From an uncultured Lachnoclostridium sp. (GTDB taxonomy: Bacteria > Bacillota > Clostridia > Lachnospirales > Lachnospiraceae): a DNA stretch of 64,000 nucleotides. A model generated the notes under the pieces. It was not told where the DNA came from, searched no databases, and saw nothing but the letters and a program-made list of their open reading frames with translations. Where the stretch lies: contig CAMIWE010000003.1 in NCBI GenBank assembly GCA_946402335.1, positions 2,400 to 66,399 on the forward strand, written 5' to 3'. Shown here in pieces: positions 8,755 to 25,459 of this stretch. The translations under genes and the position numbers were made by a program. Every line of letters begins with the position of its first letter. Position 1 is the first letter of the stretch.

Positions 8755-8791
8755 GATATAGAAAAAGGATGTTCTATGGCGAACATCCTTT
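8755..8791 (-). terminator. Rho-independent terminator after the LRR protein gene
   Basis: An 11-bp stem (AAAGGATGTTC / GAACATCCTTT, 8764-8791) is followed on the minus strand by TTTTTCTATATCAAAAAA. Confidence 0.7.
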
Positions 8792-8802: not shown

Positions 8803-9660
8803 TTATTTCTTTTTGTTAATGACCAAAACGACACCGCCGCACAAAACAAGAAACGCTGCTGCAATCCCGAGAATAACCGAGATTTTTACAGGTTTGCCCT
8901 GCTTTTTAGAAGAGTCGACCGCATCAAGATCGGGTACATTACTCGTATCCGGCGAAAGTGTAGGAATCGGTGTAACCGTCGGTGTCGGAGAAAGAATCTC
9001 ATCGAGATTGACATCGATCTCTCCAATCTGGGTTTCCCCTGTAGCGGGAGTCGGTTCCAAAGTCACGGCATCGGTCGGTGCAGGGCTTTCGGTCGGTGTG
9101 GTTCCCGGGGTGATTTTTTCGGTAGGATCCGTCGTCGGAGTGGCCCCGGGAGTAACATTGCCGGTAGGTGCTGTCGTTGTTGTCGGTTCCGGGGTAACCG
9201 GTTCAACCGTAACAGTAGGCGCAGGCGTAACGGTACTCGGTTTCACCGGCTCCGTCGGAATCAGAATACCACCATTCAAGATCAGCTCGGTCGGCGTATC
9301 CTGCGGATGATCGGTATTCGCGTTGTAGATTACCTTCAGTCCGTCCTTGAATGCCCCCTCTTCCACCTTGCAGATCGTATCCGGCAGATTCAGCTTCTTG
9401 ATGTACTTATTGACGGAAAATGCGCCTTTGGCGATCGCATTTACCGGATATCCTCCGATCATCGAAGGAACCGTAACCTCTTCCTGCTTCCCAAAGCACC
9501 CGACAATCGTAATGGATTCATTCGCAATCGTATAATAGAGGGTGCCCTCAGTGTAGACGGTATCCGGATCCGGCTCGGAATCAACTGCAAATGCAGTTGA
9601 ATGCGGCAGAGCCAGGAGGAGGATAAAGGATATAATTAGTAAAGATATAAAACGTTTCAT
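8803..9660 (-). CDS. Secreted BspA-type leucine-rich-repeat protein with Pro/Thr linker and C-terminal TM anchor
   Basis: 285 aa with a signal peptide ending STAFA. The LRR_5-like unit reads ESITIVGCFG...VTVPSMIGGYPVNAIAKGAFSVNKYIKKLNLPDTICKVEEGAF. It has a ~100-aa P/T-rich linker, a TM helix ISVILGIAAAFLVLCGGVVLVI and a KKK tail. It starts 28 nt after the stop of the giant gene. Confidence 0.8.
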   Translation of the reverse strand: MKRFISLLIISFILLLALPHSTAFAVDSEPDPDTVYTEGTLYYTIANESITIVGCFGKQEEVTVPSMIGGYPVNAIAKGAFSVNKYIKKLNLPDTICKVEEGAFKDGLKVIYNANTDHPQDTPTELILNGGILIPTEPVKPSTVTPAPTVTVEPVTPEPTTTTAPTGNVTPGATPTTDPTEKITPGTTPTESPAPTDAVTLEPTPATGETQIGEIDVNLDEILSPTPTVTPIPTLSPDTSNVPDLDAVDSSKKQGKPVKISVILGIAAAFLVLCGGVVLVINKKK

Positions 9661-9688
9661 TAGGACTCCGTTAAGGTACTATAAAAAT

Positions 9689-12600
9689 TTAATCTACCAT
9701 GAACTGCTTATATTGATTAATCAATTCCACTATTTCTTCAAATGTGATTTTTCCGGAATCTACAGCAATCTTAAGGTATTTACCATTCCACTCATCAAAC
9801 TGTTTCTCCGTCACATATTCTGCGAACACACTATAATCATATGTCCCGTATTTTGCAAGAGCCTCTTCGAATTTGGCTGTATCATAACGCATCGTTTCGC
9901 CCATCGGAATCCAGTTGTAGAATTCTTCCGGAGGTGCAACGGTCAATAATCCCGATGCAAATGCATTGGAAGTATATGCTGCAGTGATGGAATATGCATT
10001 CGTAACTTCTTCTGTCACATAAGCGTCAACAAGTTCAACCACATCATACTCATTATTGACGCTCTGCTTCACAAATCGATGACCGATAAAACTCTTGCAA
10101 TTCTCAGGAAAAATATATACAAACTTATTCTGATCAATATCAAACAATCCATGATCTGCTATCGTTCTGAGTGATGTGCCATCCGAGAAAGCAAGATTGG
10201 TTACCTTATATTCTGCTTCGCCGTGGTCAACAAGAATGGAAATATTCTGCGATACGTATTCACCGGTAAAGAAATCCCAACTAAGGATTTGGTCATCAGA
10301 TGAAATCTCTTCGATTGGCTTCTGTGAACCATCTGCAAGAGTAATCATAGTACCGGAAGCGAAGCAACCAGGACTAGGACAAGTATGTGCTGCTCTATAA
10401 TAAGCTACAACATAATAAAATGTATCACCTTTATTATCCGTATAGGAGAAAGATGCATACAATTCACTTTCGGACTTATCACTTCCTAAAGCACCGCTAG
10501 TCCAACCATAAAGATTTTTATATGTACCCGACGACAATTTTCCCTCAGTTCCTGCTTTACCGGACCCTGAAGACCATCCTGTCCCCTTAGAAGGCTTATC
10601 TTCTGTCAGTATATTGACCGAACTAGGACGAGAAGCCTGAGACGAATGATTCACTATCGTAGTAGCATTCTGTGCTGTTCCACCGTTAGCATAATCTTTA
10701 ATATCCACCGCCAGAAAGATCGGATAGAGCCAGTTGAAATCGCTGTAATTATCTTGAAAATCTACATAAACGACCGGACAATACACCGTTATTCCATCTA
10801 CAGTCGTACTTTTAACAGTATTACTTGTCGATGTCACATCAGGCATAACATATTTTTTTCCACCGGATGTGATAACAGTTTTGGATGAATATGTCTGCGA
10901 CGGGGTTTTACTCTCACTATTATATCCGTAAAACGTAAATTCAGCATTTTTTGCAGCTGCTTTTATTGCTGATACAGAAACCATAAAATCTTTTCTATAT
11001 GTTACGCTCGAATCCTTATTTCCCAAACTATTATAATTATATGGGTCAGTATATTCAAATTCCAATTCATATTCCCCAGCTTCAGTAAATGTAACAATTG
11101 AGTTGGCGCAAACTGATCCGCTTAATCTTACAGTATACGATAACGGAATACCGAATTTATTAACAGACAACGCCCCCAAATCTACAGAGTATCCATCAAG
11201 GTTTTCTTCTTCAAATCCAATTTTAACTTTTCTTTCATCGGAATCATAATAACAATAACGGCGTTCCGAAACATGTTCATTGGGCCAATTCCAACTTTCA
11301 GCAGGTATAACCACAGCCTGGCGATTACTAAAATCATCCGAATAATCTAATGAAACAGACTCTAGTGAATTGCCTTCGACCGTATAACATAAGCCGGTTT
11401 TTCCTAAAGCAGTTTTACTAACTCTTGTATAAGGCATGCCAACCTTTTGATCTGAATTTCTTTCATCTAGTAAATTGTTTGCGTTAAGGTTAACATTTTC
11501 ATTAAAATATAAAATACCGGTATTAACATAAGTTTTGTTTTGGTTTTTATACCTAATATTGCTATATGCACTATCGTTAAACAAGCTACCAAGGAAAGAG
11601 TTATAAGTACTAGGAACATCACTCTGCTGGGCCCAGTTATACTGATGAAGATAGCCGTCTAAGATTACCTTGGGAACATCTGATTCAACAATAATTCCCA
11701 TACCATAAGGGGAATCATCATACCCCGGTTGTACAGTTGTAAGGTTCTTTAATACAACTCGTTCTCCACCGCCAATAATCATATTTGCCACAGCGCCACC
11801 GATTATCGACGTATCTTCAATGGTGCTGTTGCCGGTTGTAACATTTACAGCATATTTGCTACCGGTAACCAAGCAATTATATAAACCGGAATTACCACTG
11901 AGACGTATAGTATCCTGATAATATTGATTACTTGTTCCAGACATAACCGCAGTGGGAAAATACTGCCCCAAGAACTGAACATTATTCGCATATCCGTTAG
12001 TAACATTGATCCAACCTTTAGCCCCGGAAGTATCTGTTCTGGTATCAATCACGCTAAAACCGTTACCATACAGCGTCTTACCATTCGAGATACTCATTCC
12101 GCTCGTGGAAACATCGTTTAAAAGAACAATATTTGCGCTTGATGCATTGGTAGCTGTTGTAGCATTATTAGCATTAACCACTTCCAGATTCAGCGTATAC
12201 TCGTCTCCGTTGCCTTCCTTGATGGTAACCTTAACAGGACCCTCGCCGGTGAATTTCAGCGTAGACTGGGTCCAATCAGATGCATTTGCCGAATATACGC
12301 ACTTTGCAGTGCTGCCTTCGGCAAGGTTTGTTCCGGTTCCTTTTACGGAGGAATTGCTCTCAACTGCCACTACTTTAATCGTGACATCCGAAGAAACAGG
12401 CGCACTATCTCCTGCTTCATCTACCTTGAACAACGATCCAAGTTTTACCGTATTTCCGTTACCGACACGATACAGATAACGGTCTACATTAGCGAAATTA
12501 TCACTATGTGTAAATGTATTTGCAGAAGCAATCTCAACCTTCTTTTTGTCCGCGTAGGTGTTATTATTGAAGGAAACCTCAGCAGTATATACCATGTATC

Positions 12601-15600
12601 CTGCATCGTCACCAGTACCGATGGTACCGGTAACCTCAGTTGATACACTGTCGGTATGCGATGCGTTATTTTGACATACGAAGGAAGCCGTTGCGGATGT
12701 ATATCCGTCGGCGTCATTTCCGGTCCAGCTCCAGGTCGGCTCACCCCAGTTGTGTCCAAGTGCAGCTATCTCAACATAGGTAGTGTAGTCACAACGTGAG
12801 CAGGTATCGTAAGCATTCCAGCCAATTTCCGTACAGGTTGCTGCCTGTGCCGCGTGACTAATAAGGTCGTGGCCAAGCGCCGCGATAACCTGGTTTTCTC
12901 TGGAAAGTTCTGCTCCACAGGTATTGCAGTATACCACTGCCTCATAAGAACCGGCTTCAAGGCAAGTTGCCTCTACACGGTTCTCTTCCACAGCTGCCTT
13001 AGGCGTATGCCCAAATGAAGCAATTTCCGCATATGTCGTATAGTCACAACGCAAGCAGGTTTCATAAGCGTTCCAACCTATTTCCGTACACGTTGCTGAC
13101 TGTGCCGCATGACTTATAAGATCATGACCAAGCGCTTCTACTTCACGGGTTTCCGTCTCTCCGCAGCGAGAGCAGGTTCTGGTCTCCTCGCCGGCTTCCG
13201 TGCAGGTCGGCTCTGCAGTTACAGACCAACTACCGAAGGAATGACCAAGTGCAGGATATACAACGATTGATGTATAGTCACATCTTTCGCAAGTGTTGTG
13301 CGGATTCCATCCGTCCTCCGTACAGGTGGCGGCCTTAGGAGCATGATATACCGTCTTATGACCTAACGAACTACCGACTATAATTGTCGTGCGACTTCGC
13401 TGAATACCGCAACGTGTGCAATAAACTACCGCTTCGTAAGTACTAGCCTGTGTACAGGTTGCTTCCTTTATGTTTTCAGCAACTGGCTCCCCATTAAGAT
13501 GTCCCTTCATAGAATCAATTATATGGTTAGATAAAAGCAATTTATTACATCTGTTGCAATAAGCAACCACATCATGAGAACCATTCTCCGTGCAGGTTGG
13601 TTCAACAATATTGATATTAATCAATTGCCCTTGAACATGTCCGAGACGATTTAATGAAATCTTGCCTCTGCTGATTTCCGAATTACATACGGAACAATAT
13701 CTAACTAAATCATAAGAGCCAAACTCTTCACAGGTTGGTTCTACCAGGTTTTCCTGTACAGGATCCATCATTACGTGTCCACTAGCAGGAATTACCATTT
13801 TCGTGGTGCTCAATTTATAGCCACAAACATCACAATATACAACATCATCATAATAACCGGCCTCCGTACAGGTTGCAGGAATTTCATTCTCTCTGACAGC
13901 CGGTAGCGGTGTATGACTCTTCGCCGGGACAACAATATAATCACGGCTTAATTCCGTACCGCATACTTCACAGTAAACAACCAAATCATAAGAGCCTTCT
14001 TCAGTACAGGATTCGCCCTTAACATTCTCCTTAACTGCTTCCGCTTCAAGATGTCCGGGAGCCTCGATCAGGACAAATGTGGTATAGTCGCAACGTTCGC
14101 AGGTATCGTATGCATCCCAGCCGTCCACAAGACAGGTTACCGGCTGAGCAGCATGATGAACAAGATCATGGCCAAGCGCGTCAATCTTCGCATAGGTAGT
14201 ATAATCACAACGTTCACAGGTCACATAAGCATCCCAGCCGATTTCGGTACAAGTTGCTGCCTGTGCCGCATGCTCAACGATCAGATGACCAAGAGCAGGA
14301 ATTACAACCTGCGTCGTATAATCGCAGCGGCTGCAGGCCTCATAAGCATCCCAGCCGTCCTCAGTACAAGTTACAGCCTTGGCATCATATTGCGTCAGAT
14401 CATGTCCGAGCGCACTAACCGGACGAGCCTCTACACCATTACAATACTGGCAGGTTCTGGTTTCTTCACCGTCAGCCGTACAGGTCGGATGCGTGGTTTC
14501 AAACCACATGCCCCAGTTATGGATGCACTGGAGGGTACTCGTCTCATCAATTACATATTCAATTCGGGAAACGGTTACCGCTTCGCTGCGGTCTGCGTCG
14601 GGCGCCCAGATAACAAGCTCAACCGTCATCTTCTTTCCGATGTTCAATGCGGAAAGATTGAATGCACCGCAGTCAAATGTTCCGATATTGAACAGGCAGT
14701 CATTATAGGTGACATTGTCAAGGCCGAACGAACGGAGAAGGTCAAATGTCTCGCCGTCTGCCACATCCTGCGGGAACAGGAATGCGAAGCTCAGGTCGGT
14801 ACCGTATCCGGAATAAGCGCCGTAAAGACCGAAGGATTCTTTTGCAAAATCTCCGTCAAATGTGATTCGGTAATCGCTGTTCCAGTCACGATAATACGCA
14901 AGCGTCTCATCGCTCGGTACATCGGCCGTAAACTCATATTCCACACCAAGGTGATCAACCATAATATGGGTGTCACCGAAAGGATCATTGATATCGATGA
15001 TCGGAACGCCGGTCTGCGGCTCCTTTTCCGTTACCAATGCGGAAGGATACTTCGGAATCGTATGGGTTACACGCTCCAGTTCCGCGCCACAGGTATCACA
15101 ATATACAACCATGTCGTAAGAACCGTCTTCCGAAATGGTGGGCTCTACATAATTTTCTTCAACCGCATCTTTAGGCGTATGACCAAGAGCAGCGATTTCA
15201 ACATACGTTGTATAGTCGCAGCGCGAGCAGGTATCATAGGCATCCCAGCCGATTTCCGTACAGGTCGCAGCCTGTGCCGGATGATTGATAAGGTCATGGC
15301 CGAGGGCGTCAATTACCTTAGGCTCTCTGCTAAGTTCTTCTCCACAGGTATCGCAGTATACGACAGCCTCATAGGAACCGGTCTCGGTACAGGTCGGCTC
15401 TACGCGGTTCTCTTCCACAGCTTCCTTAGGCATATGACCGAGTGCTTCAATCTTTACATAGGTTGAGTACTCACAACGCGAGCAGGTATCGTAAGCATCC
15501 CAGCCAATCTCCGTACAGGTCGCAGCCTGGGCGTCATGATGGATAAAATCATGGCCAAGTGCGTCAATCACCTTAGGCTCTCTGCTGAGTTCCTCTCCAC

Positions 15601-18600: not shown

Positions 18601-19807
18601 CAACGCAATCGGCAGGAACATAATACTGCATTGTGTTCGAAAGGATATATTTAACGGTATCATTTTGAACCTGTTTTGAGGAATAAGACTGCGTGATAAC
18701 GACAAGTGCCTGATCTTCAATCGGCTCAAGACCGTAAACCGCCTGAAGCGTAACCGTACCGGTAAGCGCGCAGCGAACAGATACGCTTGTGGCGTAACTG
18801 GTAATCTGACCGTCCTGCATCCAGTAATGGAATACATAGCCGTCTATCGCCGGTGCTGTGAATGATTTTACTTCACCAATGGAAAGAATCTTGGAAACAG
18901 ACGGAGCAAGTTCATTCTCTCCGTCCGTATAAAGCACATTAACCGTACATTCTTCTCCGCTCGCTACGTAAGCAGGAACAATGACAATGGCATTCTTCTC
19001 GGCCATCGCGGCATGAATGGATTCATCCGTAGCTTCAATATCGGAAGGATTTCCGTTGTCATCCGCAAGATACCATCCCTTAAAGATACTGCCCATCTTA
19101 ATCGGAATATCGACAGGGAAATCGATAGTCTCAGATGTGGAATAGGTTCTTGATGAGAACAACTGGCTGTAAGCATTTCGGAAATATACTACGCCCTGAT
19201 TGGGGCGGTCTTCCTTCGGAGTATAATAAGCAATCAGTTTGGTTTCACCGGAAAAGATAAAAGAATAATCCTTATTAGACGAAACAATGTTGCCGGAACC
19301 ATTAACCCAATAACGGAAATCCATAGTATCATCCACGAATGATACAAACATTTTCTCGCCGGAATTGAAATTCTGTTTGAAAGAAATGAATTGTACGGCA
19401 CCATTGTTTACTTTAAATTCGGAGCCGGAGACTTCGAACTTGAAAGCAGAGCCGCTCTTCTTTTCATAGAGAGCTACCAGATCCCGATCGGAATTTACGG
19501 TAAAAGCATAGTCCTGACTAATGCTCAAGCGGTTCGAATAAGAAGTATCTGCGGCATCATACCAGCCAAGGAAGCTATATCCCGTGCGGGAATATGCTAT
19601 CACGGTTGCAGATGAACCGTCAGCATATAAACCGCCTCCGGAAACACGCGAAACGGTCGTAGTACCTCCTTTTACTCTGGTTGTGGCGGTAATCACATAC
19701 CCTTCTTCCTCTTCACCTGCCGCCTTAGAAACAGACGGGAACAGAATAAATGCGAGGAAAAGAATGCAGATACCGTATAGAATCCTTGCTTTCAAATGAT
19801 TTTTCAT
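9689..19807 (-). CDS. Giant (3372 aa) secreted modular surface protein
   Basis: Single ORF from the track. Signal peptide is MKNHLKARILYGICILFLAFILFPSVSKA. It has GW(Y/D)-type B-repeat motifs (GYSFLGWY, FKGWYLADDNG, YNFIGWDPEL), 3 DW-C-DY modules, about 30 GH...C...CxxC mini-modules, a beta-helix and a C-terminal Hint domain (sub-features below). There is no LPXTG-like motif, C-terminal TM, SLH or choline-binding motif. Confidence 0.9.
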   Translation of the reverse strand: MKNHLKARILYGICILFLAFILFPSVSKAAGEEEEGYVITATTRVKGGTTTVSRVSGGGLYADGSSATVIAYSRTGYSFLGWYDAADTSYSNRLSISQDYAFTVNSDRDLVALYEKKSGSAFKFEVSGSEFKVNNGAVQFISFKQNFNSGEKMFVSFVDDTMDFRYWVNGSGNIVSSNKDYSFIFSGETKLIAYYTPKEDRPNQGVVYFRNAYSQLFSSRTYSTSETIDFPVDIPIKMGSIFKGWYLADDNGNPSDIEATDESIHAAMAEKNAIVIVPAYVASGEECTVNVLYTDGENELAPSVSKILSIGEVKSFTAPAIDGYVFHYWMQDGQITSYATSVSVRCALTGTVTLQAVYGLEPIEDQALVVITQSYSSKQVQNDTVKYILSNTMQYYVPADCVVSVSGFVFGVNGTLFGGEDAAQNLVLGGVDVRQLKSGLTTQKGVYTYNLSTTDPNIVLYIRAYVSYRDKDGALHTIYSDINSFSYNSLNGVYYTVTFNDAEGNALQTSDVLMGQMPVYEGEEPVKAEDDEYTYNFIGWDPELAPVTADAVYNPVFEPVPIPAPDMPTAIVTEVAPLENVQLYDPSTLNPVTKTVRSIDGVYSYTADSVEDKTKEYYADWNCDYRVSFDHDIAAGSFGFYGAYSGFGTDFEAAFLSPVGFAEGDSLFLLQSLGLSNVTYHDIYTNIPEFICGAFNISDANIGTTVTVELVMWEPGTDPKDAYVVAQKSYTFAGATKLDCIHNWSNWTVSKEASCLEDGEETRVCANCDEIETRAIDALGHDLIHHDAQAATCTEVGWDAYDTCSRCYYSTYVKIEAFGHTPKAAVEENRVEPTCIAAGSYDAVVYCDTCGEELSRNHQVIDALGHDLIHHDAQAATCTEVGWDAYDTCSRCYYSTYVKIEAFGHTPKAAVEENRVEPTCIAAGSYDAVVYCETCGEELSREPKTIDALGHDLIHHDAQAATCTEVGWDAYDTCSRCYYSTYVKIEAFGHTPKAAVEENRVEPTCIAAGSYDAVVYCDTCGEELSRTATVIDALGHDLIHHDAQAATCTENGWNAYDTCSRCYYSTYVKIEAFGHTPNEAVEENYVEATCEADGSYDMVVYCDTCGEVLERVTHTIPKYPSAQVDELEPRTNLPLVNIRNLNEDLHKTVDKLNAEYSFTSVTPEDATYDYYKDWNCDYRVTFADDFLENSFGLFGEYSGFGTTYSLAFLFPNNVVAGDEVYLLQAAGLENVTYRDIRSDINTFVCGVFNVSALNLGKKMTVELIMWAPDSDRDSAKTIVAIEYTFDDRSNVDCVHNWGGWYVTTAPDCITEGEETRVCEYCNASETRPVDALGHDYIHHDSQAATCTEIGWDAYDTCSRCDYTTYTEIAALGHTPKEAVEENRVEPTCIETGSYDAVVYCDTCGEELSREPKVIDALGHDFIHHDAQAATCTEIGWDAYDTCSRCEYSTYVKIEALGHMPKEAVEENRVEPTCTETGSYEAVVYCDTCGEELSREPKVIDALGHDLINHPAQAATCTEIGWDAYDTCSRCDYTTYVEIAALGHTPKDAVEENYVEPTISEDGSYDMVVYCDTCGAELERVTHTIPKYPSALVTEKEPQTGVPIIDINDPFGDTHIMVDHLGVEYEFTADVPSDETLAYYRDWNSDYRITFDGDFAKESFGLYGAYSGYGTDLSFAFLFPQDVADGETFDLLRSFGLDNVTYNDCLFNIGTFDCGAFNLSALNIGKKMTVELVIWAPDADRSEAVTVSRIEYVIDETSTLQCIHNWGMWFETTHPTCTADGEETRTCQYCNGVEARPVSALGHDLTQYDAKAVTCTEDGWDAYEACSRCDYTTQVVIPALGHLIVEHAAQAATCTEIGWDAYVTCERCDYTTYAKIDALGHDLVHHAAQPVTCLVDGWDAYDTCERCDYTTFVLIEAPGHLEAEAVKENVKGESCTEEGSYDLVVYCEVCGTELSRDYIVVPAKSHTPLPAVRENEIPATCTEAGYYDDVVYCDVCGYKLSTTKMVIPASGHVMMDPVQENLVEPTCEEFGSYDLVRYCSVCNSEISRGKISLNRLGHVQGQLININIVEPTCTENGSHDVVAYCNRCNKLLLSNHIIDSMKGHLNGEPVAENIKEATCTQASTYEAVVYCTRCGIQRSRTTIIVGSSLGHKTVYHAPKAATCTEDGWNPHNTCERCDYTSIVVYPALGHSFGSWSVTAEPTCTEAGEETRTCSRCGETETREVEALGHDLISHAAQSATCTEIGWNAYETCLRCDYTTYAEIASFGHTPKAAVEENRVEATCLEAGSYEAVVYCNTCGAELSRENQVIAALGHDLISHAAQAATCTEIGWNAYDTCSRCDYTTYVEIAALGHNWGEPTWSWTGNDADGYTSATASFVCQNNASHTDSVSTEVTGTIGTGDDAGYMVYTAEVSFNNNTYADKKKVEIASANTFTHSDNFANVDRYLYRVGNGNTVKLGSLFKVDEAGDSAPVSSDVTIKVVAVESNSSVKGTGTNLAEGSTAKCVYSANASDWTQSTLKFTGEGPVKVTIKEGNGDEYTLNLEVVNANNATTATNASSANIVLLNDVSTSGMSISNGKTLYGNGFSVIDTRTDTSGAKGWINVTNGYANNVQFLGQYFPTAVMSGTSNQYYQDTIRLSGNSGLYNCLVTGSKYAVNVTTGNSTIEDTSIIGGAVANMIIGGGERVVLKNLTTVQPGYDDSPYGMGIIVESDVPKVILDGYLHQYNWAQQSDVPSTYNSFLGSLFNDSAYSNIRYKNQNKTYVNTGILYFNENVNLNANNLLDERNSDQKVGMPYTRVSKTALGKTGLCYTVEGNSLESVSLDYSDDFSNRQAVVIPAESWNWPNEHVSERRYCYYDSDERKVKIGFEEENLDGYSVDLGALSVNKFGIPLSYTVRLSGSVCANSIVTFTEAGEYELEFEYTDPYNYNSLGNKDSSVTYRKDFMVSVSAIKAAAKNAEFTFYGYNSESKTPSQTYSSKTVITSGGKKYVMPDVTSTSNTVKSTTVDGITVYCPVVYVDFQDNYSDFNWLYPIFLAVDIKDYANGGTAQNATTIVNHSSQASRPSSVNILTEDKPSKGTGWSSGSGKAGTEGKLSSGTYKNLYGWTSGALGSDKSESELYASFSYTDNKGDTFYYVVAYYRAAHTCPSPGCFASGTMITLADGSQKPIEEISSDDQILSWDFFTGEYVSQNISILVDHGEAEYKVTNLAFSDGTSLRTIADHGLFDIDQNKFVYIFPENCKSFIGHRFVKQSVNNEYDVVELVDAYVTEEVTNAYSITAAYTSNAFASGLLTVAPPEEFYNWIPMGETMRYDTAKFEEALAKYGTYDYSVFAEYVTEKQFDEWNGKYLKIAVDSGKITFEEIVELINQYKQFMVD
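9692..9937 (-). other. 82-aa C-terminal tail following the Hint domain (function unknown)
   Basis: Sequence: APPEEFYNWIPMGETMRYDTAKFEEALAKYGTYDYSVFAEYVTEKQFDEWNGKYLKIAVDSGKITFEEIVELINQYKQFMVD. It is acidic and aromatic and looks helical. I recognise no toxin or enzyme motif. Confidence 0.5.
9938..10366 (-). other. Hint (Hedgehog/intein-like, bacterial intein-like) autoprocessing domain
   Basis: The junction is ...HTCPSPG|CFASGTMITLADGSQKPIEEISSDDQILS..., with the Cys codon at 10364-10366. A block-B-like DGTSLRTIADHGLF is present. The domain ends NAFASGLLTVAPP, with no terminal His-Asn and no +1 nucleophile. Confidence 0.75.
11630..12100 (-). other. Right-handed parallel beta-helix-like region
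   Basis: Short repeats rich in G/N/T/V with a periodicity of about 22 aa. They include NGKTLYGNGFSVIDTR, NVTNGYANNVQFLG, IRLSGNSGLYNCLVTGSKYAVNVTTGNSTIEDTSIIGGAVANMIIGGGERVVLKNL. Confidence 0.5.
12770..14530 (-). repeat. Array 3 of His/Cys3 mini-modules (about 14 copies, divergent)
   Basis: The recurring pattern is (A/S)(L/F)GH-x(11-15)-C(T)E-x-G-x(5-8)-C-x2-C, roughly every 40-45 aa. Examples are ALGHDLVHHAAQPVTCLVDGWDAYDTCERCDY and ASGHVMMDPVQENLVEPTCEEFGSYDLVRYCSVCNSE. Confidence 0.8.
14535..15070 (-). other. DW-C-DY module copy A3 (variant with Ser in place of the first Cys)
   Basis: Sequence: IPKYPSALVTEKEP...YYRDWNSDYRITFDGDFAKESFGLYGAYSGYG...FDCGAFNLSALNIGKKMTVELVIWAPD. Confidence 0.7.
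15070..15935 (-). repeat. Array 2 of His/Cys3 mini-modules (7 copies; about 2.5 DNA copies of a 255-bp unit at roughly 85-90% identity)
   Basis: The antisense shadow ORFs at 15536 and 15791 are exactly 255 nt apart. The protein repeats read IDALGHD(F/L/Y)IHHD(A/S)QAATCTEIGWDAYDTCSRC(D/E)Y and ALGH(T/M)PKEAVEENRVEPTC.ETGSY.AVVYCDTCGEELSREPKV. Confidence 0.8.
15935..16465 (-). other. DW-C-DY module copy A2
   Basis: Sequence: IPKYPSAQVDELEP...YYKDWNCDYRVTFADDFLENSFGLFGEYSGFG...FVCGVFNVSALNLGKKMTVELIMWAPD. Confidence 0.7.
16606..17480 (-). repeat. Near-identical in-frame tandem repeat, 255-bp unit, about 3.4 copies (85 aa = two His/Cys3 mini-modules per unit)
   Basis: Units begin with CATATGTTGAATAATAACAACGCGAGCAGG at 16606, 16861, 17116 and 17371, an exact 255-nt period. 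Aligned by eye they differ at only a few positions. The protein repeat is IDALGHDLIHHDAQAATCTEVGWDAYDTCSRCYYSTYVKIEAFGHTPKAAVEENRVEPTCIAAGSYDAVVYC(D/E)TCGEELSR. Confidence 0.9.
17600..18120 (-). other. DW-C-DY module copy A1
   Basis: Sequence: PAPDMPTAIVTEVAP...YYADWNCDYRVSFDHDIAAGSFGFYGAYSGFG...FICGAFNISDANIGTTVTVELVMWEPG. Confidence 0.7.
18335..18705 (-). other. About 120-aa domain shared with the C-terminus of the 1356-aa protein
   Basis: VVITQSYSSKQ...YILSNTMQYYVPADCVVSVSGFVFG...LYIRAYVSYRDKDGALHTIYSD aligns by eye with SITQMYASQVDGNYILSTTMRYFVPEGCQLLESGFVYS...LYIRAYIIYTDSEGSVVTRYSD. Confidence 0.6.
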
Positions 19808-19843
19808 ATAACCTCCGGCCCTCTTTATTATATAACACGCAAA

Positions 19844-19866
19844 GGAGCGGCTAGATGAGCCGCTCC
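19844..19866 (-). terminator. Hairpin (GGAGCGGC-7-GCCGCTCC) between the small ORF and the giant gene; weak terminator or attenuator candidate
   Basis: An 8-bp GC-rich stem followed on the minus strand only by TTTG. It lies 37 nt upstream of the ATG at 19807. Confidence 0.35.
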
Positions 19867-19891
19867 TAAATTAAACTTAATTGACAAACTA

Positions 19892-19996
19892 TTACAGGTT
19901 ACCCTGACTCTCGCTTGTTCCAGTAGAATCAGTAATAACATCCGTCTCAACAAGCGTAACAACTTCCAACTCAAAACTAAGGAATTCTTCTTTCAT
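19892..19996 (-). CDS. Small acidic ORF (34 aa) between the two giant genes
   Basis: Too short for the ORF track. AGGAG lies 7 nt upstream of the ATG at 19996, and the ORF starts 17 nt after the stop of the 1356-aa gene. Translation: MKEEFLSFELEVVTLVETDVITDSTGTSESQGNL, stop TAA at 19892-19894. Confidence 0.4.
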   Translation of the reverse strand: MKEEFLSFELEVVTLVETDVITDSTGTSESQGNL

Positions 19997-20013
19997 AAAA
20001 ACACTCCTATTCA

Positions 20014-23000
20014 TTACTGATGCAGGGTATCATAACTACCATAAGAAACGTCACTATATCTAGTTACAACAGATCCTTCACTATCAGTATATATTATATA
20101 CGCACGAATGTAAAGTGTCAATGCATTTCTGCTTCCGGCATTTGCATGGAATGTATAGATGCCGGTAGCAGTCGTCAAAATGGAGACATTCTTCGCCGTT
20201 CCGGTAGCTCCGATAACCAGATCGTCCAGAGCGTTCGCATATATGCTGTTGGTGCTGTATACGAAACCACTTTCAAGAAGCTGGCATCCTTCCGGCACAA
20301 AGTAGCGCATCGTAGTGGAAAGGATATAATTGCCGTCAACCTGCGAAGCATACATCTGCGTGATGGATACACCGGATTCGGGTTCAAGAGTTCCCTCATA
20401 GTTAAATACTGCAGTTACTTCAATCGAACCGCCGACAGCGACAACCGTATACTGAGACTGTGTGGATGCAATCGTTGCTCCGCCGTCAGTGCTCCAGAAT
20501 GCGAATTCATCCGTATCCTCAAGTCCGAAATCAGAAACGATGTCATCTAGCGTAATCTTTACGGTCTTACCGGCTGCATAAGAAACATCGGTATATGCAT
20601 CCAGTGTGAGTTCTTCGGTTCCCTTCAATACCTTAACGGTAAGGGTATAGGTCTCACCACTTTCGCTTGCAACATAGGTCGGGACTACTTCAACGCACTT
20701 CTCTCCGAGCGCAAGAATTGCATCGCCGGTTGCTTCGGTGCTTGTTCCCTTGATTACCCACTTATCGAAGGTATAACCCATCTTTGTAGGAGAAACCTCA
20801 GCAAGGAAGTCATCAATATCGAATGCATCCTCATAGGTTCCTTCAGCAAGTACCTGCTTATAAGCATTCAATACAACAACCTTAACACTGGATCCGCTTG
20901 CAGTCGATACAACCAGTTTAAGGATCGAATCACTTGCCATGGTAAAGGTATAATCCGGACTGGTGCTTACAATATTATCAGATTCGTTGGTCCAATACAG
21001 GAAATCTTCACCGGTATAGGAAACGGTAACGCTGGTTCCCACTTTCTTACGGAAATCACCGGCAGCTTCCTGAATCTCGGAATCATCAACCTTATATAAT
21101 ACACCGTCTACATGCAGATTTGCAGAAACATCGTTAACCGTATACTTTGCAACCAGGTCGGTATCGGCCGTTACGTTAAACGTATAACTGCTCTCGGTAG
21201 CAACACGTTCGCCGGCAACATACCATCCGTCAAATGTGTAATTGGTAACTTCAGGAGCCGTTACGGTAACTTCCTCGTTGTAAGCATACTCTCCGCCGCC
21301 GGTAAGGGTTGCAACATTCTGATTGTTGTTGTTATCAACAGAAGAAAGCGTAACCGTGCAGGTAGCGGGATGAACCGTGGTAGGCTCGCCAAATGTATAG
21401 GTTACAGGAGCACAAAGATCGATATATTCGGGATTCTCAAGGCTTGCATCCCAGATAACCAGACGAACCGTCATCTGTGTGCCAACATTGGCCGCATCGA
21501 GGTTGAATGCGCCGCAATTGAACACCTGAACGTCATCGTAAATTTCTTTATAACTGCATTCGTTGCCAAGTACATCCTTCATAAGGAAGTACTCGGTGTT
21601 GGCCGTAATCGGGCCAAGTCCGACTATAGCAAAATCGTAATTTGCATATGCACCGTAAAGGCCATAGGTATTATTGGCAAGATCATCCGAGAAGCTGATG
21701 ATATAATCACAACGCCACTGCTTGAAATAATCGTACTGCTCGTCGGTAGCCTCGTCCATAGAGAACTTGTACTCTACACCGATCGCGTCAACGACATTGT
21801 CCGTTCCCTGTACGGGAACAAGCGTGGAAGGATTCTCAACGGAAACAACCGTAGCGGTAGGATATTCCGGAACGATATCACGGATCGTGGTAGGCTCTTC
21901 GAAAACATAGCTGTCTTCGTAAATCACTACGGCATCATCACGGTCACCATCAGCAGGATACATGATCAGCTGGATGGTCATCGTCGTACCGATATTATCA
22001 TCGGAAAGATTCAATGCGCCGCAAATGAAATCCTGAACCGATGTTCTTACATAATCATATGTGCAAAGATCTGCGTCGTTCAGAACACCTGCCATAAGAA
22101 GAATCTTCTCGCCGGCCGTAATGGCATTCGGATAAGCAAATGCTCTCTCGTAGTCGGCGTATTTGCCGTAAAGGCCAATGGAACCGGCAGCAATATCATC
22201 GCTGAAGGAAACAGCGAAATCGCACTTCCAGTTTCCGTAATAAGCAATCTGCTCATCGGTTGCATCGTCTGCAGTAAACATAACAGCCTTGGCAACATCC
22301 GTAAGCTTGTTCAGATCATTACCGTTTGCATCCCAAACCGGAACATCGGTAGGAGCAGGGGTAACATCCGTAACCGTAGCCGTAGGAAGCTCGGGAGCAA
22401 TCATACTAAGCTCGGTAAGATCATCGAAGCCGTACTCGGTCTCGGTAAGAACAACTGCGTCAGCAGCGGAACCGTCAACAGGCCAGAGAATCAGGCGGAC
22501 ATCAATCGTGCTGTCAGCGTTATCCTCATCGAGATTGAAGATACCGCAGGTGAACGGACTTACAACATTCAAAAGTTCCGTATAAGTCAGTGTCGTACCT
22601 GCTAATGCAGACTCCAAAAGACGTACGCTGTCGCCGGCGGAAACGTCCTGCGGATACAGGAATGCATACTCATAACTGCCATATGCGCCGTAAAGGCCAA
22701 ATGACTCGGTTGCTACGTCATCGTTAAATACGATTTCGTAATCGCAATACCAGTCTTTATAGAAGTCAAGCACTTCTGCAGAAGGCTGATCTGCGGTAAA
22801 GATGTATTCCTTACCAAGGTCAGCAGTCTTATTCAAAGAAGTAAAGCTGCCGTTAGCAAGGGAATAAACTTCCACATCAGTTGCAGGATTGGTTACTTCT
22901 TCAACCGTAGCGGTCGGAAGCAGTTTCTTATACGGGATTGCCAGTACATTGTCCGCCTCATTATCAGTAATTAACAGCGCCGGGTTGGATGCACGGGTAA

Positions 23001-24045
23001 GAAGGAAGCCATCATAAACAAGGTTCGAAGGATCATGTACCTTCGTAGCCTCGATGGTCGAGCCGAGAGTAGCCTCGCCTTCTTCACGCTCAGCGATTTC
23101 AATCTCCGTTCCGTCTAATACGAAACGGATTTCGAAGAACTCGCGATCAACAGCAATATTAATCTCGGGATTGTTTGCAGTGGAAGGCGTATTGCCGGAA
23201 ACACTTGCAATATCTTCCACAACAACGCTTGCTCCCTGAGCAGCATAAATACCGCCGCCGATTCCCTGCTGAGTGCTGTTGGAATTATTTACATTATTGT
23301 TTGTGATTCTCGCATCCTCTTCCACGATAACGGAACCATTCTCAGCAACATAGATGCCGCCGCCAGCTCCTGACGTAATATTTCTCTCGCGGAAAGTCGA
23401 ATAGTTATCACAGATGTTACCGCTTTCAAAGATAAATGTACCGTCTTCGACATATACACCGCCACCGTTGGTCTTAGGAGGCGTAATCGTCATTCCGTCA
23501 AAAGTCCAGGTATCTTTACCGCTTGTACCCTTATTCATACCTCCGGAAATCTGACCGGTCATACCGGTGCTGGAATCACGGATGGTAAGTGTCGCGCCGT
23601 TCCGAATCCAGATAACCATACCTGCGGAATGTACACCCATTTTTTTTCTGTCATTAAACTCTCTTCGAATCGTATGACCTGCAAGATCAATAACGGTATC
23701 CTGTACAATCAAAACAGGGCCGAGGCCTTCGTAATACGGATAAGAATCCGGATCATCCGGGTCCGAATAAACCAAAATATTAAAGGAAGCTTTATAATCA
23801 CGGTCTGCTTCATTAATATTGTCGATATCCGAAAAATCACTGTCCAGACGGAAAGAACCGCCTTTGTACAGGGCTCTCAAAAAGTCATCCCAGCTTAAAT
23901 CCGAGCCAAGTACGGTTACCTCGTCGGGTTCGCCCTCTGCATAAGCCTTAGGAGCCTTCACGGAAAGAACGCTCGTAAGGACAAGCACGGCTACGGAAAG
24001 CCCGACTACAACTTTCTTACATTTGCCGGTTAAAAATCCAAGCAT
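20014..24045 (-). CDS. Giant (about 1343-1356 aa) secreted modular surface protein, paralogous in module content to the 3372-aa protein
   Basis: The ORF track gives 20014..24084. I prefer the ATG at 24045 (MLGFLTGKCKKVVVGLSVAVLVLTSVLSVKAPKAYA), which follows RBS AAGAGGAG. The first ATG at 24084 lies only 5 nt after the serS stop. It contains GGG(I/V)Y beta-helix repeats, 3 DW-C-DY modules and B-repeat motifs (YTFDGWYVAG, FLYWTNESD, YTFDKWVIKG, FAFWSTDGG). No anchor motif is visible. Confidence 0.85.
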   Translation of the reverse strand: MLGFLTGKCKKVVVGLSVAVLVLTSVLSVKAPKAYAEGEPDEVTVLGSDLSWDDFLRALYKGGSFRLDSDFSDIDNINEADRDYKASFNILVYSDPDDPDSYPYYEGLGPVLIVQDTVIDLAGHTIRREFNDRKKMGVHSAGMVIWIRNGATLTIRDSSTGMTGQISGGMNKGTSGKDTWTFDGMTITPPKTNGGGVYVEDGTFIFESGNICDNYSTFRERNITSGAGGGIYVAENGSVIVEEDARITNNNVNNSNSTQQGIGGGIYAAQGASVVVEDIASVSGNTPSTANNPEINIAVDREFFEIRFVLDGTEIEIAEREEGEATLGSTIEATKVHDPSNLVYDGFLLTRASNPALLITDNEADNVLAIPYKKLLPTATVEEVTNPATDVEVYSLANGSFTSLNKTADLGKEYIFTADQPSAEVLDFYKDWYCDYEIVFNDDVATESFGLYGAYGSYEYAFLYPQDVSAGDSVRLLESALAGTTLTYTELLNVVSPFTCGIFNLDEDNADSTIDVRLILWPVDGSAADAVVLTETEYGFDDLTELSMIAPELPTATVTDVTPAPTDVPVWDANGNDLNKLTDVAKAVMFTADDATDEQIAYYGNWKCDFAVSFSDDIAAGSIGLYGKYADYERAFAYPNAITAGEKILLMAGVLNDADLCTYDYVRTSVQDFICGALNLSDDNIGTTMTIQLIMYPADGDRDDAVVIYEDSYVFEEPTTIRDIVPEYPTATVVSVENPSTLVPVQGTDNVVDAIGVEYKFSMDEATDEQYDYFKQWRCDYIISFSDDLANNTYGLYGAYANYDFAIVGLGPITANTEYFLMKDVLGNECSYKEIYDDVQVFNCGAFNLDAANVGTQMTVRLVIWDASLENPEYIDLCAPVTYTFGEPTTVHPATCTVTLSSVDNNNNQNVATLTGGGEYAYNEEVTVTAPEVTNYTFDGWYVAGERVATESSYTFNVTADTDLVAKYTVNDVSANLHVDGVLYKVDDSEIQEAAGDFRKKVGTSVTVSYTGEDFLYWTNESDNIVSTSPDYTFTMASDSILKLVVSTASGSSVKVVVLNAYKQVLAEGTYEDAFDIDDFLAEVSPTKMGYTFDKWVIKGTSTEATGDAILALGEKCVEVVPTYVASESGETYTLTVKVLKGTEELTLDAYTDVSYAAGKTVKITLDDIVSDFGLEDTDEFAFWSTDGGATIASTQSQYTVVAVGGSIEVTAVFNYEGTLEPESGVSITQMYASQVDGNYILSTTMRYFVPEGCQLLESGFVYSTNSIYANALDDLVIGATGTAKNVSILTTATGIYTFHANAGSRNALTLYIRAYIIYTDSEGSVVTRYSDVSYGSYDTLHQ
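20017..20385 (-). other. C-terminal ~120-aa domain shared with residues ~365-490 of the 3372-aa protein
   Basis: See the feature at 18335-18705. Confidence 0.6.
21385..22925 (-). other. Three tandem DW-C-DY modules (B1 22410-22925, B2 21885-22400, B3 21385-21875)
   Basis: B1: FYKDWYCDYEIVFNDDVATESFGLYGAYGSY...FTCGIFNLDEDNADSTIDVRLILWP. B2: YYGNWKCDFAVSFSDDIAAGSIGLYGKYADY...FICGALNLSDDNIGTTMTIQLIMYP. B3: YFKQWRCDYIISFSDDLANNTYGLYGAYANY...FNCGAFNLDAANVGTQMTVRLVIWD. Each is preceded by a P(E/L)(Y/L)PTATV linker. Confidence 0.7.
23190..23700 (-). other. Pmp-like parallel beta-helix region (GGGxY repeats)
   Basis: Repeats are NGGGVYVEDGTFIFESGNI, SGAGGGIYVAENGSVIVEEDARI and GIGGGIYAAQGASVVVEDIASV. 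Confidence 0.55.
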
Positions 24046-24089
24046 AAACAACACTTCTCCTCTTACATATTTATCAAAAAGCATTTCTG

Positions 24090-25370: not shown

Positions 25371-25430
25371 CTTGCTACCTCTTTTTACTTCATTTAGTAC
25401 TTAAAATACTACGAACACAAAGATATAGTT

Positions 25431-25459
25431 ATTATACCATTTCTGCCCGATATATTCAA
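25431..25459 (-). promoter_or_regulatory. Strong sigma-70-like promoter for serS (-35 TTGAAT, 17 nt, -10 TATAAT)
   Basis: Minus-strand reading is TTGAATatatcgggcagaaatggTATAAT. It leaves a 5' UTR of only about 55 nt. Confidence 0.55.

What the first reader, a model, noticed from the sequence alone, without database searches (positions are those of the whole stretch)
8803..24084. Candidate new surface system: two anchorless giant modular exoproteins, an acidic micro-ORF and an LRR membrane protein as one transcription unit
Seen: four co-directional genes lie at 24045-20014, 19996-19892, 19807-9689 and 9660-8803. The gaps are 17, 84 and 28 nt. The only clear terminator is at 8755-8791, after the LRR gene.

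Both giants have signal peptides, beta-helix segments, B-repeats and the shared unknown modules, but no wall or membrane anchor. The last gene encodes a type I membrane protein with an extracellular BspA-type LRR and a Pro/Thr stalk.

Inference: the LRR protein could be the cell-bound receptor or dock for the giants. The Hint domain would provide processing or covalent coupling. The FCT-like pilus operon lies immediately downstream in the same orientation. The combination does not match any described adhesin or toxin system I know.
Basis: inference. Interest (0 to 1): 0.7.

Follow-up and report, generated by a model that had tools for sequence, protein, structure and literature searches.

The report
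Giant exoproteins, micropeptide, mini-LRR anchor cassette
Two huge secreted proteins, a 34-residue peptide gene and a small membrane-anchored LRR protein form a gene cassette that recurs in gut and rumen Clostridia. The grouping is therefore real and undescribed. Its job is still inferred; the most likely one is displaying variable adhesin-like fibres on a conserved stalk.

Summary
The four genes, their gaps, signal peptides, shared modules, lack of anchors, the LRR/stalk/TM protein and the Hint domain are all confirmed.

All 80 related LRR loci with enough upstream sequence have one of two things directly upstream. Either a protein ends in the same Hint+tail module (21 loci), or a giant ends in the G1-type C-terminal domain and is followed by a homologous micro-ORF (57 loci). 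The full G1–micro–G2–LRR order recurs in a relative whose LRR is only 47% identical.

New findings:
- G2's C-terminus is a Hedgehog-like unit: a BIL-type Hint with no C-terminal Asn, plus a conserved four-helix tail. It belongs to a family of about 2,000 clusters, always at the C-terminus of varied secreted proteins.
- The Hint+tail cassette is swapped between strains while the LRR stays 96% identical. This argues against a toxin–immunity pair.
- The micro-ORF is a real gene family under purifying selection. Its N-terminus resembles an RRE-binding RiPP leader. In about five lineages PqqD, HprK-like and S26-like genes lie beside the cassette, but not in this window.

"One transcription unit" is uncertain, and docking of the giants on the LRR protein is untested.

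The parts
20014..24045 (-). G1, a 1343-aa secreted giant. Order: signal peptide, N-terminal region with three GGG[IV]Y motifs (22918-23934), three DW-C-DY modules (21361-22917), Flg_new_2-type B-repeats (20422-21354), C-terminal 'C-dom' (20017-20421).
   Evidence: C-dom is homologous to the C-terminal domain of Dysosmobacter-type giants at 28-41% identity. It has no Pfam or PDB sequence match.
19892..19996 (-). Micro-ORF, 34 aa and acidic (8 D/E, 1 K/R), with no signal peptide. It starts 17 nt after the G1 stop and has its own AGGAG RBS. The N-terminal half is conserved and the tail is variable.
   Evidence: The family has 77 clusters of 30-46 aa with no Pfam match or name. Homologues sit in the same position in L086-88, L171-174, L175-180 and about 50 metagenome loci. 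pN/pS is 0.26. hhalign against lasso precursor leaders gives P=7e-5.
19844..19866 (-). GC-rich stem-loop (10-bp stem, 5-nt loop) followed by UUUGCGUGUU, between the micro-ORF and G2. It may be a weak terminator or an RNA-stabilising hairpin.
   Evidence: Stem-loops lie in the same place in L086/87 (15 bp) and in Dysosmobacter-type loci (15 bp, -35 kcal/mol).
20093..20121 (-). Perfect sigma-70 consensus (TTGACA-17-TATAAT) inside the 3' end of G1, about 100 nt upstream of the micro-ORF.
   Evidence: It is not evidently conserved in L087 or L175, so its function is uncertain.
9689..19807 (-). G2, a 3372-aa secreted giant. Order: signal peptide, B-repeats plus internal C-dom (18335-19693), three DW-C-DY modules (17573-18124, 15914-16486, 14510-15085) alternating with Cys-rich 85-aa repeat blocks (16487-17572, 15086-15913, 12338-14509), an unassigned region (10367-12337), then Hint plus tail.
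   Evidence: The same G2-type layout is seen in L086 and L181.
9938..10366 (-). Hint (BIL-type) autoprocessing domain of G2, aa 3148-3290. The predicted scissile bond is Gly3147|Cys3148. There is no C-terminal His-Asn.
   Evidence: Pfam Hint is weak. A family profile hits PDB 6y75 at E=5e-6 and Hedgehog 1at0 at 4.5e-4. AF2 pLDDT is 92. Foldseek TM to target is 0.75-0.83 for BIL2, mini-inteins, Hedgehog and the C. thermocellum BIL. Cys1 and the block-B His are conserved in all aligned members.
9692..9937 (-). Conserved, roughly 80-aa four-helix 'tail' after the Hint domain, aa 3291-3372. It occupies the position of the Hedgehog SRR/ARR.
   Evidence: Helices at model residues 171-230 with pLDDT around 90, not covered by any Hint match. 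The tail is conserved with Hint in every family member. The top 150 of 1,993 strong hits all carry the whole module at the extreme C-terminus.
8803..9660 (-). LRR-TM protein, 285 aa. Order: signal peptide, highly conserved ~95-aa BspA/TpLRR-type mini-LRR (9286-9585), Pro/Thr/acidic linker (8899-9285), TM plus KKK (8806-8898).
   Evidence: The family has at least 118 clusters. All 80 loci examined are preceded by a Hint+tail ORF or by C-dom plus micro-ORF. Some members carry SLH repeats or a dockerin instead of the TM.
8764..8791 (-). Intrinsic-terminator-like hairpin (11-bp stem plus T-run) that closes the cassette.

Best explanation
The four genes are the local version of a conserved, mosaic cell-surface cassette of gut and rumen Clostridia. 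It is found in a Lachnospiraceae-like organism here and in Oscillospiraceae such as Dysosmobacter.

The core has four parts:
1. A Sec-exported, strain-hypervariable giant whose constant parts are its signal peptide and N-terminus and a beta-rich 'C-dom'.
2. A closely following 33-47-aa acidic peptide gene.
3. A stem-loop.
4. A small protein that presents a very conserved BspA-type mini-LRR on a disordered stalk. The stalk is fixed to the cell by a TM helix, or in some lineages by SLH repeats or a dockerin.

In the window's version a second giant (G2) is inserted between the peptide gene and the LRR gene. G2 ends in a Hedgehog-like C-terminal autoprocessing unit: a BIL-type Hint plus a conserved four-helix tail.

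Most likely working (inferred):
- Both giants are secreted and act as variable adhesin-like or fibre-like surface proteins.
- The invariant LRR-stalk protein is their conserved cell-bound partner. It would hold them through a constant part such as C-dom.
- G2 undergoes an N-to-S acyl shift at Gly3147|Cys3148. The thioester is then resolved, detaching the ~3,147-aa passenger from the 225-aa Hint+tail. This gives either release or transfer to a nucleophile.
- The micro-ORF encodes a peptide with an RRE-binding, RiPP-leader-like N-terminus. PqqD, HprK-like and S26-like genes would mature it. They flank the cassette in other lineages and must lie elsewhere, if at all, in this genome.

Shown: the architecture, the synteny, the Hint fold with its catalytic residues, and coding selection on the peptide. 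Inferred: docking, cleavage, and peptide maturation.
For: Synteny:
- L086-88 carry G1 (1529 aa), micro-ORF (33 aa), G2 (3069-3108 aa) and an LRR of 47% identity.
- L089 and L090 carry giant then LRR.
- Dysosmobacter-type loci carry giant (2248-3170 aa at one locus), micro-ORF, 15-bp hairpin, then LRR-TM.
- All 80 LRR loci have a Hint+tail ORF or C-dom plus micro-ORF directly upstream.

Conservation pattern:
- The LRR domain is 55-65% identical across families.
- C-dom is 28-41% identical.
- The giants' middles vary in length between strains.

Interchangeable anchors on the LRR domain: TM, SLH or dockerin.

Hint:
- Fold and PDB profile hits.
- Cys1 is present in all aligned members that cover it and the block-B His is invariant. 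The C-terminal Asn is absent.
- The module is always C-terminal, on subtilases, camelysin-like and Flg_new passengers.

Micro-ORF:
- 77 clusters and pN/pS 0.26.
- Leader-like match to lasso precursors (sequences from PMC7533575).
- PqqD, HprK-like and S26-like genes beside the cassette in L181, L096 and L120; a PqqD homologue alone is detectable beside it in the short loci L104 and L106.

Precedents:
- Hog is Hint plus SRR/ARR (PMC2362128).
- BIL domains occur in hypervariable secreted proteins (PMC7765530).
Against: - No interaction, expression or localisation data exist.
- The LRR protein does not co-vary with the Hint+tail cassette. It also exists without any Hint protein in Dysosmobacter-type loci, so it is not a Hint-specific partner.
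- The three Hint+tail proteins sampled from the Hint side had no LRR neighbour.
- C-dom is internal in G2, and its structure could not be modelled confidently.
- Many of the 80 loci are the same species from different samples, so the number of independent lineages is about ten.
- No PqqD, HprK-like or S26-like maturation genes lie in the 64-kb window.
- The leader similarity is short and weak: hhalign probability 63%, NCBIfam E=0.026.
- The hairpin and the internal promoter make joint transcription uncertain.
- A tiny 1.5-repeat LRR could simply be a small adhesin of its own.
Confidence: 0.4

Rival explanations
1. Hint-driven covalent anchoring. The thioester formed at the passenger's C-terminus is not hydrolysed. 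Guided by the helical tail, as the SRR guides Hedgehog, it is attacked by an envelope nucleophile. Candidates are a Lys or Thr of the LRR-stalk protein, a lipid II amine or a glycolipid. G2 would then become covalently fixed to the cell without a sortase.
For: - The Hint lacks the C-terminal Asn, so only N-terminal chemistry is possible.
- The conserved tail sits in the SRR/ARR position (PMC2362128).
- The closest solved structure, BIL2, makes isopeptide conjugates without ATP (PMC8616854).
- The giants have no other anchor.
- In 21 of 21 class-A loci the LRR-stalk gene directly follows the Hint+tail ORF.
Against: - The LRR is unchanged when the Hint+tail cassette is swapped.
- The LRR also occurs in cassettes without Hint.
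- Hint+tail occurs on soluble-type enzymes such as subtilases and without LRR neighbours.
- No acceptor is identified.
- No paper supporting such anchoring was found.
Confidence: 0.13
2. The LRR-stalk protein is just a small independent adhesin or spacer, co-located and co-regulated with other surface proteins. It neither binds nor anchors the giants.
For: - BspA/TpLRR-type LRRs are typical stand-alone surface proteins.
- A hairpin and possible promoters separate the genes.
- The LRR does not co-vary with the giants.
Against: - Strict adjacency holds in 80 of 80 loci, across two families and across three anchor types.
- The extreme conservation of the LRR domain is unlike a ligand-exposed adhesin next to hypervariable neighbours.
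Confidence: 0.2
3. The cassette is centred on the peptide. The micro-ORF would be a RiPP-like signal or effector matured by PqqD, a kinase, a peptidase and an ABC exporter. The LRR-TM protein would be its receptor, immunity or presentation factor. The giants would be co-regulated cargo.
For: - Leader-like N-terminus and variable C-terminal 'core'.
- PqqD, HprK-like and S26-like genes next to the cassette in L181, L096 and L120, an ABC exporter too in L181 and L120, and a PqqD homologue alone in the short loci L104 and L106.
- Micro-ORF and LRR are adjacent in the Dysosmobacter-type version.
Against: - The maturation genes are absent from the window and from the Dysosmobacter-type and L086 loci.
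- The LRR-TM has no signalling domain, only a KKK tail.
- No lasso B2 or C genes, or any other core-forming enzyme, were found.
- The micro-ORF start lies only 13-26 nt after the giant's stop codon. This points to a link with the giant.
Confidence: 0.15
4. Polymorphic-toxin system. Hint would release a C-terminal toxin (the tail), and the downstream LRR protein would be its immunity protein.
For: - HINT is a known releasing peptidase placed just before toxin domains (PMC3482391).
- A small gene follows directly.
- The C-terminal cassette is swapped between strains.
Against: - The tail is one conserved family across about 2,000 clusters, not a polymorphic set.
- The LRR stays 96% identical while the tail drops to 33%.
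- The LRR is extracellular and membrane-anchored, and occurs without any Hint+tail.
- Padloc/toxin libraries were not scanned. The Pfam and NCBIfam scans list no toxin family among G2's hits.
Confidence: 0.03
5. Chance neighbourhood of unrelated large surface-protein genes.
For: Clostridial genomes carry many Flg_new-rich giants. The 80 serS loci of family-level relatives have none of these genes.
Against: Gene order is conserved at 47% LRR identity and across bacterial families.
Confidence: 0.03

Closest known systems
Hedgehog 'Hog' C-terminal autoprocessing domain (Hint + SRR/ARR)
   Same: It is C-terminal in a secreted protein. It has a Hint fold with Cys1 and the block-B His and no C-terminal Asn, followed by a conserved ~70-80-residue helical region (PMC2362128).
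   Different: Sequence similarity is weak (Pfam Hint 20.6 bits, below the 29.7 cut-off). The tail has no detectable relation to the SRR. No sterol or other adduct is known. The host is a Gram-positive anaerobe.
Bacterial intein-like (BIL) domains, especially B-type; BIL2 of Tetrahymena BUBL
   Same: BIL2 (6y75) is the best structural and profile match. BILs sit in hypervariable, non-conserved secreted proteins, as described in PMC7765530. N-terminal cleavage chemistry is expected.
   Different: Here the domain is strictly terminal and fused to a conserved helical tail. Assignment to A- or B-type was not tested against their motif definitions.
BspA/TpLRR-type (LRR_5) surface proteins
   Same: The family profile matches 4gt6 and TpLRR 6mlx through the N-cap and first repeat.
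   Different: There are only about 1.5 repeats (~95 aa) on a long disordered stalk with a TM, against many repeats in BspA-like proteins. Pfam LRR_5 was not detected in the window protein.
Lasso-peptide / RRE-dependent RiPP precursors (paeninodin-type clusters with PqqD B1, HPr-kinase homologue, nucleotidyltransferase, ABC exporter)
   Same: The leader-like motif K-K-x-aromatic-x-x-P-x-hydrophobic-x-hydrophobic and a Thr two residues before a frequent Gly. PqqD, HprK-like, NTP_transf_5 and ABC genes lie beside the cassette in relatives. Compare PMC7533575.
   Different: No B2 protease or C cyclase occurs anywhere. Many tails lack a Gly1 or an Asp/Glu at positions 7-9. None of these genes is in the window.
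Non-covalent surface display in Gram-positives (SLH, cohesin-dockerin scaffoldin anchoring)
   Same: A variable secreted component goes with a conserved cell-bound partner. LRR family members actually carry SLH or dockerin modules.
   Different: The giants have no cohesin, dockerin or SLH. The proposed LRR-C-dom contact is hypothetical.
Polymorphic toxin systems with HINT releasing peptidase
   Same: A signal peptide, a long repetitive body, a Hint near the C-terminus, a small gene downstream, and cassette swapping.
   Different: The post-Hint domain is conserved rather than polymorphic. The downstream protein does not co-vary and is extracellular.

Membership tests
HINT superfamily | Horseshoe Hint fold | tested here: met
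   AF2 pLDDT 92. Foldseek E=3e-9 to 4e-8, TM to target 0.75-0.83, for BIL2, DnaB and RecA mini-inteins, Hedgehog 1at0 and the C. thermocellum BIL.
HINT superfamily | N-terminal nucleophile (Cys/Ser) at position 1 and block-B His | tested here: met
   Cys3148 (CFASGT) aligns with Cys in every member that covers it. His80 of the alignment is invariant.
Inteins (protein splicing) | C-terminal His-Asn plus a downstream nucleophile, and insertion within a host protein | tested here: not met
   The Hint ends ...SGLLTV/...GMLSMPG with no HN. It is followed by a conserved tail and then the stop codon.
Hog (Hedgehog-type) domain | Hint followed by a C-terminal adduct/sterol recognition region at the protein's C-terminus | tested here: inconclusive
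   The architecture is analogous: a four-helix tail that is always terminal. Homology of the tail to the SRR/ARR was not shown, and Pfam Hint is below its cut-off.
Hog (Hedgehog-type) domain | Transfer of the passenger to a nucleophile such as cholesterol | not testable with these tools
   Needs mass spectrometry of the processed passenger.
Polymorphic toxin / immunity | Diverse C-terminal toxin domains after the releasing peptidase | tested here: not met
   The same tail is present in all top 150 of 1,993 strong hits and in all aligned variants.
Polymorphic toxin / immunity | The downstream immunity gene co-varies with the toxin | tested here: not met
   LRR 96.5% against tail 33% identity between the window and L084, with the breakpoint at the G2 stop.
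Sortase-anchored (LPXTG-type) surface proteins | C-terminal sorting motif, then a hydrophobic segment, then a basic tail | tested here: not met
   G1 and G2 have no C-terminal hydrophobic segment and no motif near the end. The LRR protein has a TM plus KKK, but the family has no conserved motif before it.
BspA/TpLRR-type LRR (Pfam LRR_5) | Profile match to LRR_5-type repeats | tested here: met
   The family profile hits 4gt6 at E=1.3e-18 and TpLRR 6mlx at 1.4e-8. Pfam LRR_5 is seen weakly only in a relative and not in the window protein.
Lasso peptides | Leader with a YxxPxL-like motif and Thr at -2 | tested here: inconclusive
   hhalign probability 63%, P=7e-5 over 17 columns. One member hits the paeninodin model at E=0.026. 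'TTS|G' is frequent.
Lasso peptides | B2 protease and C cyclase in the cluster | tested here: not met
   Neither is among the genes named in L096, L120 and L181. The window was searched only for PqqD, ScmC-like and S26-like homologues (none); no B2 or C model was run on it.
RRE-dependent RiPP precursors (general) | A PqqD-like RRE gene in the neighbourhood | tested here: inconclusive
   Present beside the cassette in L181, L096, L120, L104 and L106. Absent from the 64-kb window and from the Dysosmobacter-type and L086 loci.

The most novel reading that the evidence does not exclude
The C-terminal Hint plus four-helix tail would be a bacterial counterpart of the Hedgehog Hog domain. It would be a self-contained, sortase-independent transferase. 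It would convert the passenger's last peptide bond into a thioester and hand the passenger to an envelope acceptor: the LRR-stalk protein here, or lipid II or a glycolipid elsewhere. About 2,000 clusters of Firmicute exoproteins would then use a previously unknown covalent surface-attachment route. In this cassette it would work together with a RiPP-like micropeptide and a dedicated LRR stalk.
Probability: 0.12. Interest if true: 0.9.

Novelty: new variant of a known kind. Interest (0 to 1): 0.62.

Why it matters
Gut and rumen Clostridia encode many giant, strain-variable surface proteins. How they are held on the cell is unknown.

This cassette offers a testable answer: a small, highly conserved LRR-stalk protein that always accompanies them.

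It also brings three uncharacterised families into view:
- a C-terminal Hint+tail module with about 2,000 clusters;
- a 30-46-aa RiPP-leader-like peptide family;
- the C-dom and DW-C-DY modules.

One version sits in Dysosmobacter, a common human gut genus, where the giant's length differs between strains. The system may therefore bear on strain-level colonisation and host or particle adhesion.

If the Hint+tail transfers rather than merely cleaves, it would be a new way of anchoring proteins to Gram-positive cells.

Tried and rejected
The 80 loci were only family-level relatives and held no G1, G2 or LRR homologues. They were useless for synteny and show only that the cassette is not tied to serS.
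- An exact look-up of the window's LRR protein found nothing.
- The word-indexed Hint+tail search gave only 24 clusters and wrongly suggested rarity. The exhaustive profile search corrected this to 1,993 strong hits.
- Sequence and profile searches of C-dom, DW-C-DY, G1 and the G2 2491-3147 region against PDB and Pfam found nothing.
- AF2 of G1 712-1343 modelled only the DW-C-DY module with confidence (pLDDT about 90). Foldseek with the whole model gave only generic Ig-like strings. MAFFT repeatedly misaligned the C-dom row.
- Rfam found no RNA family, including no T-box before serS.
- The internal perfect promoter is not conserved in other lineages.
- Toxin/immunity and chance-neighbour readings were rejected.
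- A lasso peptide proper was rejected for lack of B2 and C genes.
- One literature search was wasted through loose terms.

Full report
**1. Observation**

The minus strand carries ORFs at 20014-24084, 19892-20014, 9689-19807 and 8803-9660.
- Ribosome-binding sites favour the ATG at 24045 for G1 (1343 aa) and at 19996 for the micro-ORF (34 aa).
- A terminator-like hairpin with a T-run lies at 8791-8764.
- G1 and G2 (3372 aa) each have one N-terminal hydrophobic segment. Neither has a C-terminal TM or a terminal sortase motif.
- The 285-aa protein has a signal peptide, a Pro/Thr-rich linker and a TM at residues 255-284 followed by KKK.
- Pfam sees only Flg_new/Flg_new_2 repeats and a sub-threshold Hint in G2.
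- BLAST shows that G1 898-1342 is homologous to G2 39-491 (33% identity). Each giant has three copies of a ~175-aa 'DW-C-DY' module.
- G2 also holds 255-nt tandem repeats that encode an 85-aa Cys-rich unit.
- Downstream lie a pilin-like protein ending ...ISPTG plus TM, an S26 peptidase and a class B sortase.
- Upstream, serS ends 44 nt before G1.

Three points qualify 'one transcription unit':
- a 10-bp GC-rich hairpin followed by UUUGCGUGUU in the 84-nt gap;
- a 12/12 sigma-70 consensus at 20121-20093;
- no terminator between serS and G1.

The 'beta-helix' claim could not be verified.

**2. Synteny**

The LRR protein belongs to a family of at least 118 clusters of 250-330 aa.
- The ~95-aa N-terminal domain is very conserved.
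- The linker is variable and the C-terminus is a TM plus basic tail.

Contexts of homologues:
- In L086-88 the LRR is 47% identical. The order is G1-like (1529 aa), a 33-aa ORF, G2-like (3069-3108 aa), then LRR.
- L089 and L090 show giant then LRR.
- L084/85 and L171-174 are the same species as the window, at 96-97% nucleotide identity.

A metagenome scan with the LRR alignment returned 80 loci. Together with the context loci, 80 loci have more than 300 nt upstream of the LRR gene.
- In 21 of them an ORF ending in a Hint+tail module stops directly upstream.
- In 57 a giant ending in the G1-type C-dom stops there, and in 56 a micro-ORF homologue follows it.
- None lacks both arrangements.

In the second class, one micro-ORF cluster is named Dysosmobacter sp. 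by NCBI.
- The giant is 2248-3170 aa at one chromosomal locus.
- Its N-terminus and C-dom are conserved.

Many loci are the same species resampled, so I count about ten independent lineages. The pilus operon is not a constant neighbour.

**3. The Hint+tail**

An alignment of homologues shows a ~230-aa module.
- It starts at an invariant Cys (window Cys3148, preceded by Gly).
- It has an invariant block-B His.
- It ends without His-Asn, and a conserved tail follows.

Structure and family:
- AF2 gives pLDDT 92: a Hint fold plus four helices.
- Foldseek finds BIL2 of the Tetrahymena BUBL locus, mini-inteins, Hedgehog 1at0 and the C. thermocellum BIL. All cover only the Hint part.
- A family profile hits the same PDB entries.
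- An exhaustive profile search finds 6,614 proteins at E<1e-3 and 1,993 at E<1e-30.
- In all top 150 the module runs to the last residues of proteins of 237-3072 aa.
- Their passengers include subtilases, camelysin-like domains and Flg_new repeats.

The unit is thus architecturally like the Hedgehog Hog domain, which is Hint plus SRR/ARR (PMC2362128). Only N-terminal chemistry is possible. BIL2 shows that such a thioester can be passed to a lysine (PMC8616854).

Between strains of the window's species the Hint+tail cassette is replaced.
- It is 39% identical at the amino-acid level and has no nucleotide match.
- The breakpoint lies at the G2 stop.
- The LRR gene stays 96.5% identical and the pilin 98% identical.

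This, together with the constancy of the tail, rejects a toxin–immunity reading (compare PMC3482391). Three Hint+tail proteins sampled from the Hint side had no LRR neighbour.

**4. The LRR protein**

Its profile matches the BspA/TpLRR-type structures 4gt6 (E=1e-18) and 6mlx (E=1e-8). It comprises just the N-cap and about 1.5 repeats.

Some family members replace the TM with SLH repeats or a dockerin. The domain is therefore a surface-displayed module with interchangeable anchors.

It is the best-conserved part of the cassette, at 55-65% identity between families.

**5. The micro-ORF**

Homologues form 77 clusters of 30-46 aa with no name or Pfam match.
- They start 13-26 nt after the giant's stop.
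- A stem-loop follows in three lineages.
- The first 25 codons have pN/pS 0.26.
- The pattern is M-x-K-K-x-Y-E-x-P-E-M-x-V-I...E-D-I-I-T-T-S, followed by a variable acidic tail.

In L181 the LRR-SLH variant is preceded by a PqqD gene, a 47-aa micro-ORF and a G2-type Hint giant.
- A ScmC/HprK-like gene, a 150-aa S26-type peptidase and an ABC transporter lie upstream of these.
- A second micro-ORF and a second LRR-TM lie downstream.

Homologues of the PqqD, ScmC and S26 genes lie just after the LRR gene in L096 and L120. L120 also has NTP_transf_5 and an ABC exporter. PqqD is also found in L104 and L106.

The micro-ORF profile aligns with the leaders of rumen lasso precursors from PMC7533575 Table 3. 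The probability is 63% and P=7e-5 over 17 columns. One member hits the paeninodin model at E=0.026.

No lasso B2 or C genes occur in the related loci that carry the PqqD set, and the window holds no PqqD-type maturation gene (B2 and C were not searched for in the window). I read the micro-ORF as an RRE-leader-like peptide, not a lasso peptide. This is an inference.

**6. Unassigned modules**

C-dom and DW-C-DY have no Pfam or PDB sequence match. The DW-C-DY module folds confidently (pLDDT about 90), but no meaningful structural neighbour was found.

**7. Verdict**

The most likely function is surface display of hypervariable giants by a conserved LRR stalk. It would involve Hedgehog-like self-processing of G2 and an associated RiPP-leader-like peptide. 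My confidence in this is about 0.4.

Independent adhesin, peptide-centred and covalent-transfer readings remain open. Toxin–immunity and chance adjacency are rejected.

Noticed in passing
window 9692-10366; L084 1-808: Within one species (97% nt identity elsewhere) the 3' end of G2 that encodes Hint+tail is replaced by a variant of 39% aa identity. The breakpoint lies exactly at the G2 stop / LRR spacer (window ~9673).
   Followed up: yes
L181 226-5443; L096 6786-8290; L120 3655-8742; L104 786-1211; L106 1236-1664: A recurring gene set lies beside the cassette in several lineages but not in the window. It comprises a PqqD-family chaperone, a ScmC/HprK-related P-loop protein and a 150-aa S26-type peptidase. 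L181 and L120 add ABC-transporter genes and L120 an NTP_transf_5 gene. Only the PqqD homologue is seen in the short loci L104 and L106.
   Followed up: partly
P0125/L181 10001-10960; P0097; P0140: Members of the mini-LRR family carry SLH repeats or a type I dockerin in place of the TM helix.
   Followed up: partly
L175-L180 (giant at e.g. L178 475-9987): In Dysosmobacter-type genomes the giant at one fixed locus, next to spoIIE, varies from 2248 to 3170 aa between samples. Its first ~60 residues, its C-dom, the micro-ORF and the LRR-TM stay conserved.
   Followed up: partly
window 16557-17483 and 15078-15822: There are 255-nt tandem repeats of 3.6 and 2.9 copies (90% and 81% matches). They encode an 85-aa Cys-rich unit (GH...CTE...C.RC / ...C...C..CG). 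G2 has 112 Cys and 30 CxxC motifs, with no Pfam family.
   Followed up: no
window 20093-20121 (- strand): A perfect TTGACA-17-TATAAT lies inside the G1 coding sequence, about 100 nt before the micro-ORF. It is not conserved in other lineages.
   Followed up: partly
window 4946-6328 (- strand): A class B sortase (TIGR03064, above cut-off) is fused to a C-terminal membrane region that matches the NCBIfam 'FILTED domain' model. The neighbouring pilin-like protein ends ...ISPTG plus TM.
   Followed up: no
L081 2002-4914: A small Hint+tail protein (P0006) is followed by four TasA/camelysin-like proteins with SipW-type signal peptides. A 2050-aa family member (P0220) has an N-terminal Peptidase_M73 domain. 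This suggests a link between Hint+tail proteins and TasA-like fibres.
   Followed up: no
window 24046-24089 and 25371-25620: serS ends 44 nt before G1 with no terminator between them. No T-box or other Rfam family is detected upstream of serS.
   Followed up: partly
L181 11024-12394: A 456-aa secreted protein with a single DW-C-DY-like module directly precedes a second micro-ORF. The module therefore also exists outside giants.
   Followed up: no
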